A program made the position numbers. Shown piece by piece: positions 39,001 to 42,000 of a stretch of DNA of 64,000 nt. Each line of letters opens with the position of its first letter. Position 1 is the first letter of the stretch. Source of the stretch: an uncultured Nitrospiraceae bacterium (lineage in GTDB: Bacteria > Nitrospirota > Thermodesulfovibrionia > Thermodesulfovibrionales > UBA6898); contig CAWEQH010000009.1 in the NCBI GenBank assembly GCA_963811165.1, positions 1 through 64,000 on the forward strand, written 5' to 3'.

Positions 39001-42000
39001 TGAACAGGCATATTATCTTCTCGATACTGCTATGGGCCTGCTTAAGGGAAAAAAGGGCCGGAATGATTAAAAGAGTGACGACCGTGACCCTTCCAAGAAG
39101 ACCGGCCCATCGGTTATAATTTGGTAATCATCATTTTACTTTTATGATAGGAGGCCATGAGTTATGAACCTTAAGCCGCTTCAAGACTGGGCCGTAATCA
39201 GAAGGTCCGAAGCCGACGAGAAGACCGCCGGCGGCATTATCATACCGGATACAGCGAAGGAGAAGCCCCTCGAAGGGGTGATTGTCGCGATCGGCCCGGG
39301 CAGATATAAGCTGGAAAAAGGGAAGGAAAAAGAGAAAAAGAAGAAGTTCTTCCCCACTGTTCTTAAACCGGGGCAGAAAGTCATTTACCAAAAATATGCC
39401 GAACGGGAAGTGGAACTGGGCAGCGAGGTTATCACTCTCGTCAGGGAAGAAGACATCCTCGGAACGGTAGAAGATTACGCTGTCGCCAATAGAAAGACGC
39501 ATGCCATAGAGGAGAAAAGGGAAGGGCCGGTAGCAATAAGGGAAAAGGCCCATGTCCCGGCGGTCACTCCCGCCAGGGTGTCCGGGAAAAAACCTTCCAC
39601 CGTCGAGAAAAAAACTCCGGAAAAGAAGCCGGCGGCAGTGAAGGGTAGCGCGTCTAAGAAAGCTGCGGCGAAACAGCCTGCGGAAAAGGCAACGAAAAAA
39701 ATCGTCGCGGAAAAGACGCAAAAGAAGGCACCAAAAAAGACATTACCTGTAAAGAAAAAGGCCGCTCCTCCGGCCATGAAATCCGTAGCCGGAAAGAAGG
39801 CGAAGGAAAAGGTCGTTGCCGGGAAACCGGCTGTAAAAAAGGCGGCCCAGCGTAAAACGACGAAGCCAGCGGCAAAGAAATCCGCAGTAAAAAAGATCGC
39901 TGTGAAAAAGATTGTGAAAAAGACATTGGCGAAGACCAAAGGCAAGAAGAAATAGAATCTGACTTCCGGGGGCTTGGAAAAGCCCCCTTTGTTTTTACCT
40001 CCTATGAAAGTTTTCTGTCGGAGTTTACCGCCCCCCGTTCTCTCTTTCGGCGCCTTCAACGTTTTGGTAATTTTTAAAAAGGCCGTTGCTTACATAAGAC
40101 GCTCTGCGAGTTGTAGACAGGGCACGAAAAGAATATCATCGCAATCAGGGTCTATTCGGTCTGCGTTCTCTCTTCGGGAGGCTGGTAAGTACATCCCATT
40201 TTTCCGCAGTAATGGCCGACGTATTCCGACTCGGGCCTGTAGAGGGCGGGTTTTTCCTGCGCCTCTGAGAACTTCTCCTCGATAATATGTGCGCACCAGC
40301 CGGCTATCCGGGAGACAGCAAAGAGCGGGGTCATGAGATCCACCGGTACGCCCATCATATGATATACAGAGGCGCTGTAAAAATCGCAATTAGGCTTTAT
40401 CGTCTTTTTTCCCCTTCTGTCGAATTCTTCGAGGGCGGCCTGCTCGACCTGGATCGACAGGTCATACCATTTCTTTTGCCCCAGTTTCTCCCCTAGTCTG
40501 CGCGACATCTCTCGAAGAATCGCGGCCCTGGGGTCCATCGTCTTATAGACCGCGTGTCCCATCCCCATGATTTTCCTGCCCTGATCGATCTCCTTCCTCA
40601 CCCACCCGGCGATGTCCTTTTCCTGTTCCAGTTCCATAAGCATCCTCATGACCCGCGCGTTGGCGCCGCCGTGCAGGCTTCCCGAAAGTGCCCCCACTCC
40701 GGCCGCCACTCCGGCATACATATGGGCCCTCGTCGACACCACCTCGCGGCAGGCAAAGGTCGATGCGTTAAAGGTATGGTCGGCGTGGAGGATAAGGCAG
40801 ACATCGAGGTCCCGGGCGATTTCGGGATCAGGCTTTCTTCCGTGCAGCTGCCACAGAAAGTTGCCTGCATGCGAAAGACCCTTGTCGGCAGGAAGCGGCT
40901 CAAGACCGTTTCTGATGCGGTGCCAGGCAGCGATGAGGACAGGGATTCTTGCGATTAATCTGATCGCCTTTCTTAAGTTCCCCTCCCGTGTCTCATCCGG
41001 CAGTTCAGGGTCGGCAATGGCAAGAAGGGGCACGGACGCCTGAAGCACGTCCATCGGGAGCGACTGTTTCGGCCATCTTCTGAATGAATCATAGATAAAA
41101 TCCGGTATCTCTCGTGACTCCTCTATCTGCCCGGTGAAAGATTTGAGCCGATCTTTATCCGGAAGCCCGTCATTGAGAAGCAGCCAGACAGTATCGGGAA
41201 AGGTGGACTTTTCTGCAAGGTCCTCTATCCGGTACCCGCGGTAGATAAGGACGCCTTGTTCTCCATCGATGAAACTGATCTTCGTATCGGCCACAGCGAC
41301 CCCGCGGAGGCCGGTATTTTTTATGCGGACTGTTTCCATTATTGTCGCTCCTTTTCCTTTATACCGGACATAATTCTCTGGGTTACGCTACCGCACCTCA
41401 ACCATAAAACTCAGGACTACAACTTTGCCGTTGTGCCCGACCTGGCTGAATACCTGGTAGAGACCCTTGGCCGGAAATACGACGGGCACATCGATTTCAG
41501 GTCCGAATTTTTTCGGGACGTTCATATGCATCATGTGCATCATATGTCCCATATGCTCATGTCCCATCGATGCCCCCGGCAACTCGCCGTGCTCGTGCAT
41601 AAAGTTTTCGAGGTCGGAAGAGATGATGGCAACATGCATAGGCGCCGCAAGATACGGTTCAAGGTCTGTGACCGGTTCGCCGTCTTTTCTGATCATATAT
41701 TTCAGGGTCGTCTCTTTCCCGGCGGTGATCGTTTCAGGGACAGTTGTAAGGGCCACCGATAAATCGCCGAACTTCTTGTTGCGGGAGAGATCTTTTGTAA
41801 AAAGACCCATCTTCGGTCCGCCTTCGACCGCCACAGTAAAATGTTCGGAGATGAGATTGTCCTTTGCCGCTGTGTCGAGGGCGATGATATAGCGTCCTGC
41901 CTTCGGAAAGGTGAAGCGCACCGGATATTCCGCCTTCTTCTTCATCTCATCCGTGATCGGCCAGAAATCGTCGGGGTGGATGTGGGCGAACACCGTAAAA

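What a model noticed while it worked through the whole genome (the two positions that open the first line are those of the whole stretch)
39164..39955. GroES paralogue with a polylysine roof insert and a 160-residue histone-H1-like tail
g02581 (263 aa) is a co-chaperonin GroES (41-48% to Swiss-Prot GroES over residues 1-103, with the mobile loop TAGGIIIPDTAKEKP intact) that carries two additions. One is a Lys-rich insert in the roof hairpin (GPGRYKLEKGKEKEKKKKFFPT). The other, after a conserved linker, is a 160-residue tail of Lys/Ala/Pro repeats like the C-terminal domain of histone H1 or bacterial Hc2. The gene is separate from the canonical groES-groEL pair (g00562-g00561). A tail-less copy with the same roof insert (g01841, C8:14063-14386) follows an HU gene on a genomic island. 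The fusion is a family, not an accident of this assembly. It predicts a GroES heptamer with seven polycationic tails, that is, a co-chaperonin [...]
Evidence so far: Pfam finds Cpn10 at residues 1-101 only, with Swiss-Prot hits to GroES; the sequences are shown in call 104. A database search restricted to 144-461 aa finds 828 relatives, named only 'chaperonin GroES', from Nitrospirota, Acidobacteriota and others; 4 of the 120 listed also carry Pfam PF07382 (HC2). Of the 120 best, 104 have >=50 residues after the GroES domain (median tail 133 aa), the mean Lys content of the tails is 31%, and 84 have K+A+P >= 50%. A 96%-identical 263-aa protein exists in another data set (P0124).
(Added by a program. 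Inside this text positions count along the whole contig: contig position 1 is position 1 of the stretch shown here. "Call 12" and the like, gene names such as g00115 and contig names such as C1 are that model's own, and its searches are not shown. The text may have been shortened before it was handed on; [...] marks where a part breaks off. The agent that wrote the report below was given it as the finding of a first reader that could run no searches.)

Follow-up and report, generated by a model that had tools for sequence, protein, structure and literature searches.

The report
Orphan GroES with lysine-rich tail
This gene encodes a spare lid for the bacterial protein-folding machine, carrying a long, floppy, strongly positive tail like that of DNA-packing proteins; it belongs to an unstudied family in one bacterial phylum, and what the tail binds is untested.

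Summary
The 263-aa protein is a GroES domain (1-103) with a Lys/Glu roof insert, a neutral 34-aa linker and a 126-aa disordered tail (35% Lys, net +41). It belongs to one clade of orphan GroES marked by Trp9 and the charged roof: 107 genes in 106 of 401 genomes of the phylum (Nitrospirota, by relatives' names). The tail is optional: 68 tailed, 38 tail-less, 1 cut. None of 40 loci has groEL within 5 kb. None of 105 has the CIRCE heat-shock operator (23 of 31 operon groES do), while 48 of 67 tailed genes have a TATAAT box (controls 8 of 73). The GroEL-binding loop is intact in 106 of 107. Best reading (0.45): a second, non-heat-shock lid for the single GroEL whose tails tether it to polyanions, probably nucleoid DNA. 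The main rival (0.25) is a tolerated, lineage-wide appendage. HC2 membership fails. Precedents exist for each part; the scan earlier noted a similarly tailed GroES in Bdellovibrio relatives on other DNA. No expression or binding data. New variant of a known kind.

The parts
39115..39120 (+). TATAAT, candidate -10 box of the gene's own housekeeping-type promoter
   Evidence: Read. The same hexamer lies 15-80 nt upstream of 48 of 67 tailed family genes against 8 of 73 control genes. The scanner listed a different weak site at 39121-39148.
39149..39154 (+). Ribosome-binding site
   Evidence: AGGAGG ending 9 nt before the ATG
39164..39472 (+). GroES (Cpn10) domain, residues 1-103
   Evidence: Pfam PF00166 E 1.2e-22; AlphaFold2 pLDDT 68-94 per block of 10; Foldseek top hits are GroES/Cpn10
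39188..39190 (+). Trp9, clade signature in place of the Arg of ordinary GroES
   Evidence: Invariant in 112 of 112 and 31 of 31 aligned members; Arg in 41 of the 42 ordinary GroES printed for L001, L007-L017 and L088-L117
39212..39262 (+). Mobile loop (GroEL-binding), Gly24 plus Ile-Ile-Ile
   Evidence: Gly plus three hydrophobic residues in 106 of 107 family genes
39299..39355 (+). Roof hairpin with Lys/Glu insert, residues 46-64
   Evidence: Strands 46-50 and 60-64 in the model; net +6; net positive in 82 of 83 parsed members
39473..39574 (+). Neutral linker, residues 104-137, with a weakly conserved motif
   Evidence: Net +1; Lys118 84%, Pro122 85% among 112 relatives; no secondary structure predicted
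39575..39955 (+). Disordered Lys/Ala/Val/Pro tail, residues 138-263, and stop codon
   Evidence: 35% Lys, net +41; most Lys-rich 100-aa window of 3000 called proteins; pLDDT about 50; no Pfam match
39968..39997 (+). Intrinsic-terminator-like hairpin and T run; the next gene is convergent
   Evidence: 8-bp stem (4 found against 2.5 in shuffles, so weak on its own); citrate synthase on the minus strand ends at 40152

Best explanation
A second, separately regulated lid for the cell's single GroEL. An old groES duplicate in this phylum left the HrcA/CIRCE heat-shock operon and is transcribed alone from a housekeeping-type promoter (inferred). Its domain forms a GroES ring, alone or mixed with the roofless operon GroES (inferred), and docks on GroEL through the intact mobile loop (inferred from conservation). 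The basic roof, and in two sub-lineages seven disordered polycationic tails (about +300 per heptamer), face outward and bind polyanions without sequence specificity. Nucleoid DNA is the most likely partner; RNA, ribosomes or polyphosphate are possible. This would hold the lid, and transiently the folding cage, near the nucleoid. Shown: sequence, fold, clade, context and regulatory motifs. Inferred: oligomer, GroEL binding, tail partner and purpose.
For: The fold is intact. The loop is kept in 106 of 107 genes across 18 families although it is normally a flexible element. Only 1 of 46 carrier genomes shows a second, partial groEL locus, so no dedicated partner exists. CIRCE is in 0 of 105 against 23 of 31, and TATAAT in 48 of 67, including 31 of 46 outside the discovery set. 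Tail charge is kept while its sequence diverges (median net +29 in 68 genes; 54 of 54 complete f25 genes are tailed). In this genome the next most charged tails sit on two DksA/TraR proteins, a DUF4912 protein and a SWIB protein. Such tails are needed for nucleoid binding in HupB (PMC5676037, abstract) and tether granules in AlgP/PhaF (PMC11894788, passages). A C-terminal extension is compatible with an essential GroES in H. pylori HspA (PMC3856676, passages).
Against: 38 of 107 members have no tail, and no strong match was found in 295 of 401 genomes. This genome's own duplicate lost the tail and stayed under selection. Tail length ranges from 32 to 170. In the window's order the DksA orthologue carries a similar tail in 5 of 5 tailed-GroES genomes, which fits a general habit of adding such tails. 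Lys-rich tails also occur on an exported protein and a DD-carboxypeptidase here. No nucleoid gene is a conserved neighbour. The protein is below all 14 NCBIfam GroES cut-offs, and the effect of Trp9 is unknown.
Confidence: 0.45

Rival explanations
1. The selected unit is the Trp9/charged-roof GroES domain, an alternative lid for particular substrates or conditions. The tail is a tolerated appendage in lineages that tend to grow Lys/Ala extensions, with little specific role.
For: 38 tail-less members. Recent tail loss in the C8 copy with dN/dS 0.10. DksA and GroES tails co-occur in 5 of 5 tested genomes of the window's order. 9 of 10 differences from the 96% relative lie after residue 103.
Against: In family f25 the DksA orthologue has no extension (0 of 6) while GroES is tailed in 54 of 54 complete genes; its second DksA-like gene was not read there. 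Charge is kept across two different linker types. A +41 tail can hardly be inert in a cell (inference).
Confidence: 0.25
2. The GroES ring has been co-opted as a multivalent nucleoid-associated or condensate scaffold and no longer works with GroEL.
For: Never beside groEL (0 of 40), outside the heat-shock regulon, invariant Trp9 and a changed stretch at residues 76-81. M. tuberculosis GroEL1 is a chaperonin homologue turned nucleoid protein (PMC2731897, abstract).
Against: The mobile loop is conserved in 106 of 107 genes, with and without tail.
Confidence: 0.12
3. The loops dock on another heptamer such as ClpP, making this a protease cap or regulator, with the tails setting its location.
For: Chlamydomonas Cpn11/20/23 caps and inhibits ClpP with the same loops (10.1101/2021.07.26.453741, passages), so loop conservation does not name the partner.
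Against: No clpP among the 150 neighbours scanned. The precedent is a plastid complex, and I know no bacterial case (recalled).
Confidence: 0.1
4. Its main job is to be a minority subunit that supplies a roof to mixed rings with the roofless operon GroES, tuning the cage as in plastid hetero-rings.
For: 27 of 30 operon GroES of the phylum lack the roof. Plastid rings mix roofed and roofless domains (10.1101/432013, passages).
Against: G220 and G330 have a roofed operon GroES and this paralogue as well. Genomes such as G013, G106, G059 and G019 have a roofless GroES and no paralogue. It does not explain the tail.
Confidence: 0.08

Closest known systems
Group I co-chaperonin GroES/Cpn10 (PF00166)
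   Same: Fold, mobile loop, 40-41% identity to M. tuberculosis and Thermus Cpn10 in the structural alignment.
   Different: Trp9, longer basic roof, 160-aa extension, no groEL neighbour, no CIRCE; below every NCBIfam GroES cut-off (best 89.7 against 96 bits).
Bdellovibrio bacteriovorus GroES2 (Bd3349), PMC3464611 (passages read)
   Same: Second groES apart from groES1-groEL, not heat-induced, annotated at 224 aa with about 107 aa of repetitive sequence.
   Different: The extension is N-terminal and the authors dismissed it as misannotation. The paper never calls it lysine-rich (0 occurrences; that comes from AI note e1-2417410). It is expressed late in predation. Its sequence was not obtained, so kinship with the Trp9 clade is untested.
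Helicobacter pylori HspA (PMC3856676, passages)
   Same: GroES with a functional C-terminal extension that adds a binding role.
   Different: Short His/Cys tail that binds nickel; it is the sole, essential GroES.
H1-like-tailed bacterial proteins: HupB/HupS, AlgP, PhaF, actinobacterial TopA, chlamydial Hc2
   Same: A folded or oligomerising domain plus a disordered Lys/Ala/Pro tail of similar size and charge.
   Different: Their heads are nucleoid, granule or DNA enzymes, not a chaperonin lid. This tail lacks regular PAKK/KPAA repeats and does not match PF07382.
Plastid co-chaperonins Cpn11/20/23 and phage T4 gp31
   Same: Alternative lids that differ in the roof hairpin; mixed rings; a second partner (ClpP).
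   Different: They shorten or lose the roof and have no polycationic tail.

Membership tests
GroES/Cpn10 co-chaperonins | Cpn10 domain above the Pfam cut-off and GroES beta-barrel fold | tested here: met
   80.2 bits against 21.1; model and Foldseek
GroES/Cpn10 co-chaperonins | Mobile loop with Gly plus three hydrophobic residues | tested here: met
   G24-I-I-I; 106 of 107 family genes; feature as stated in PMC5649160
GroES/Cpn10 co-chaperonins | NCBIfam GroES model above its curated cut-off | tested here: not met
   0 of 14 models; best 89.7 against 96. The tail-less C8 copy passes narrowly, 96.4 against 96.
GroES/Cpn10 co-chaperonins | Heptamer that caps GroEL and supports ATP-driven folding | not testable with these tools
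   Needs biochemistry
Operon (heat-shock) GroES | Adjacent to groEL and under CIRCE/HrcA | tested here: not met
   groEL in 0 of 40 loci; CIRCE in 0 of 105; the genome's two perfect CIRCEs precede groES-groEL and hrcA. The CIRCE consensus was recalled.
Hc2 histone H1-like nucleoprotein (PF07382) | Profile match above the gathering score | tested here: not met
   No hit for this tail; four relatives 25-27 bits against 40
H1-like nucleoid-binding tails (HupB/AlgP type) | Disordered, Lys/Ala/Pro-rich, strongly basic | tested here: met
H1-like nucleoid-binding tails (HupB/AlgP type) | Tail-dependent DNA binding or nucleoid localisation | not testable with these tools
   Needs binding assays and microscopy
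Bdellovibrio GroES2 | N-terminal repetitive extension before the GroES domain | tested here: not met
   Here the domain starts at Met1 and the extension is C-terminal
Bdellovibrio GroES2 | Common ancestry of the GroES domain | not tested
   Sequence not obtained. None of 97 non-Trp9 hits among the profile's best 150 had a Lys-rich N-terminal extension.

The most novel reading that the evidence does not exclude
Bacteria have repeatedly built a nucleoid-tethered chaperonin lid. A constitutive orphan GroES with seven histone-H1-like arms recruits GroEL to chromatin or polyanion condensates and so sets where folding happens. It arose as a C-terminal fusion once or twice in Nitrospirota and independently as an N-terminal fusion in Bdellovibrio relatives.
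Probability: 0.25. Interest if true: 0.82.

Novelty: new variant of a known kind. Interest (0 to 1): 0.57.

Why it matters
GroEL-GroES is usually treated as a freely diffusing machine with one lid. A lid that keeps its GroEL-binding loop, leaves the heat-shock regulon and carries about +300 charges per ring would give a simple, testable way to localise folding or sequester the lid. The family offers natural controls: tailed and tail-less copies in one genome, and tail-less members in other lineages. It also suggests that the repetitive extension of Bdellovibrio GroES2, set aside in 2012, may be real. If the tail proves inert, what remains is an undescribed, phylum-restricted GroES subfamily with a basic roof.

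Tried and rejected
Assembly or frameshift artefact: rejected; a 96% identical full-length protein and 68 tailed genes exist. A dedicated second GroEL: rejected. A functional link to HU: rejected as not conserved. A conserved operon across the family: none among 150 of 156 nearest neighbours scanned (6 not sent); only family f25 keeps one neighbour (46 of 55 genomes). A folded second domain in the extension: none predicted, no Pfam, no usable Atlas hit. Fusions over 461 aa: one GroES-GroEL fusion among 111 candidates, weak evidence. Other groups: no Trp9 member in 401 genomes of the Desulfonema-centred phylum (the one hit is ordinary GroES), none over 107 bits in 151 genomes of G403's phylum (10 best read), none in the 80 best of 268 viral loci. 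One or two origins of the tail: undecided (best tree has two groups; one clade not rejected, p-AU 0.39). Expression: no RNA holder listed. The N. marina proteome table lists one GroES, numbered next to GroEL. No chaperonin term in the readable 'Ca. Sulfobium' supplements, with file 3 not searched. A GroEL apical domain plus GroES domain prediction was queued and had no result, so no verdict. The cluster-member look-up for more taxon names could not be made. The single-protein scan of genome contigs gave 1 family member among 12 loci.

Full report
Observation. The ORF at 39164-39955 (+) gives a 263-aa protein with Cpn10 at residues 2-101 as its only Pfam family. It has a ribosome-binding site, a TATAAT at 39115-39120 and a terminator-like hairpin at 39968-39987 before a convergent citrate synthase gene, so it looks monocistronic. 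Residues 104-137 are neutral (+1). Residues 138-263 are 35% Lys, 19% Ala, 10% Val and 8% Pro with net +41. This is the most Lys-rich 100-residue window among 3000 called proteins of the genome. AlphaFold2 with 112 relatives gives a confident GroES barrel, an extended roof hairpin (strands 46-50 and 60-64) and no secondary structure after residue 102. Foldseek's best matches are GroES/Cpn10 structures.

The genome. It has four Cpn10 matches and one GroEL. The operon GroES on C1 is an 87-aa roofless form with a perfect CIRCE; the other perfect CIRCE precedes hrcA (consensus recalled). The C8 copy is a recent duplicate of the gene studied here. DNA likeness runs from about 70 nt upstream to 4 nt past its stop, which falls on the second codon after the domain (Tyr105). 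Over 104 codons dS is 0.50 and dN 0.049, so both domains are under purifying selection and the tail can be lost. The region around it has uneven GC and defence-type genes, which partly supports the island reading; no integrase was looked for. HU lies beside the family gene in only this one locus among L001-L087. A fourth, divergent 120-aa GroES on C10 is not of this clade.

The family. Of the 120, 114 are family members and 6 are ordinary or tandem GroES. All members have Trp at position 9, where ordinary GroES has Arg, and a charged roof insert. I searched 401 genomes of the phylum with residues 1-137, fetched every match with E below 1e-24 and read them. This gave 107 genes in 106 genomes: 68 tailed (32-170 aa, median 96, median net +29), 38 tail-less and 1 cut by a contig end. 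405 weaker matches were not listed and not read, and four broken or partial copies (L175-L178) were left out of the count. Tails occur in family f25 (54 of 54 complete genes) and in the window's order (14 genes); all 13 other families with a member are tail-less. A profile search at 55-205 aa returned mostly tail-less proteins (113 of 119 new ones), though that profile was weighted to them. Source names are Nitrospirota except one 'Acidobacteriota' protein that is 137/141 identical to a Nitrospiraceae one and one unranked bacterium; the Atlas also gives Nitrospirota. No member was found in 401 genomes of the Desulfonema-centred phylum, in 151 of another phylum or in the 80 best viral loci. In quick trees the 42 family rows form one branch (SH-aLRT 99), also with the roof columns removed, next to the phylum's operon GroES (88 and 97). 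That fits an old duplication with many losses, but rests on 82-104 columns and few outgroups. One origin of the tail is not rejected (p-AU 0.39), although the two tailed groups have different linkers.

Context and regulation. None of 40 loci has groEL within 5 kb. Of 46 carrier genomes, 45 have a GroEL match and only G095 shows a second, partial locus. The 150 nearest neighbours scanned, of 156, are mixed; one gene is kept in f25 only (46 of 55). CIRCE with at most 3 mismatches lies upstream of 23 of 31 operon groES and 0 of 105 family genes. An exact TATAAT lies 15-80 nt upstream of 48 of 67 tailed genes (31 of 46 in genomes outside the set where I first saw it), 11 of 38 tail-less genes, 2 of 31 operon groES and 8 of 73 control genes from the same loci. 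Kin are not independent, so these are descriptions and not tests. They point to housekeeping, non-heat-shock expression, which is an inference: no RNA data were obtained.

Mechanism. The loop that binds GroEL (Gly plus three hydrophobic residues, PMC5649160 passages) is kept in 106 of 107 genes. With no partner GroEL of its own, the simplest reading is a second lid for the one GroEL. GroES termini and roof face outward from the cage (recalled from solved structures), and H. pylori HspA shows that a C-terminal extension need not block function (PMC3856676 passages). A heptamer would carry +308. Tails of this make-up are required for nucleoid association in HupB (PMC5676037 abstract), occur on several DNA-binding proteins of Streptomyces (PMC7398561 passages) and are thought to tether granules to the nucleoid in PhaF and AlgP (PMC11894788 passages). 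In this genome the next most basic tails are on two DksA/TraR proteins, a DUF4912 protein and a SWIB protein. I therefore favour a polyanion-tethered lid (0.45).

Results against. The tail is absent from 38 of 107 members and was recently lost from a maintained duplicate. No strong match was found in 295 of 401 genomes. The DksA orthologue has a 51-76 aa Lys-rich extension in 5 of 5 tailed-GroES genomes of the window's order, and in 0 of 12 genomes with tail-less members and 0 of 5 without a member. That fits a lineage habit of adding tails, but it is also absent in 0 of 6 f25 genomes, where GroES is always tailed. Similar tails sit on an exported protein and a carboxypeptidase here. The HC2 matches are all below cut-off, and the protein misses all 14 NCBIfam GroES cut-offs. 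Loop conservation does not name the partner, since plastid co-chaperonins use the same loops on ClpP (10.1101/2021.07.26.453741 passages). The operon GroES is roofless in 27 of 30 cases (26 by pattern, L097 by reading), which recalls mixed plastid rings (10.1101/432013 passages), but roofed operon GroES and this paralogue co-occur in G220 and G330.

Comparison and novelty. Nine searches of the held library (listings only unless stated) found no description of this clade or of a GroES with a polycationic tail; most subscription journals are not held. The paper it names (PMC3464611 passages) confirms a second groES, not heat-induced, expressed late in predation, whose N-terminal repetitive part the authors set aside; it does not say the part is lysine-rich, and I did not obtain the sequence. 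M. tuberculosis GroEL1 is a nucleoid-associated chaperonin homologue (PMC2731897 abstract). PMC5904260 was seen as passages and added nothing specific. Two supplement searches gave no expression data for the family, and one supplementary file could not be read. Each ingredient thus has a precedent, while this combination, its clade and its regulatory signature appear undescribed.

Verdict. A real, conserved, phylum-restricted GroES subfamily with an optional H1-like tail; a new variant of a known kind; interest 0.57. The bold reading, a convergently evolved nucleoid-tethered lid, has probability about 0.25.

Noticed in passing
G000:C10:992056-992418 (L004:1483-1845): A fourth, divergent 120-aa GroES with a different long roof insert and no groEL beside it. 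Similar weak Cpn10 matches occur in several relatives, and in G284 it lies directly upstream of the tailed paralogue.
   Followed up: partly
L001:1495-1755 and L088-L117: The operon GroES of this phylum mostly lacks the roof hairpin (27 of 30); families f2, f10 and f11 keep it.
   Followed up: partly
L059:5059-5637 and other f25 loci: A co-directional gene with a weak HSDR_N_2 match lies next to the tailed groES in 46 of 55 f25 genomes; in the window's genome two homologues lie elsewhere, on C1.
   Followed up: partly
G000:C4:675992-676627, C8:59360-60034, C8:67052-68047, C1:433445-433837, C4:321434-321616: Lys/Ala-rich extensions on two DksA/TraR proteins, a DUF4912 protein and a SWIB protein, plus a 60-aa stand-alone Lys/Val/Ala protein with no Pfam match.
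   Followed up: partly
G000:C8:1788-4839 (L312): HTH, IrrE/M78 peptidase, DUF2188, multi-ubiquitin and DUF6791-ThiF genes in a row, which looks like a regulated ubiquitin-like defence locus (the reading is recalled).
   Followed up: no
G000:C8:13679-13993 (L003:1114-1428): The HU gene runs about 14 codons past the usual end, into the stretch where likeness to the window's groES upstream region begins; possibly the junction of the duplicate's insertion.
   Followed up: no
L175, L176, L177, L178: Broken or partial extra copies of the family in G251, G212, G374 and G034.
   Followed up: no
G000:C10:1099442-1099870 and C10:305646-305927: Two small paralogues with CxxC...CC motifs and Lys-rich C-terminal tails, with no Pfam match.
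   Followed up: no
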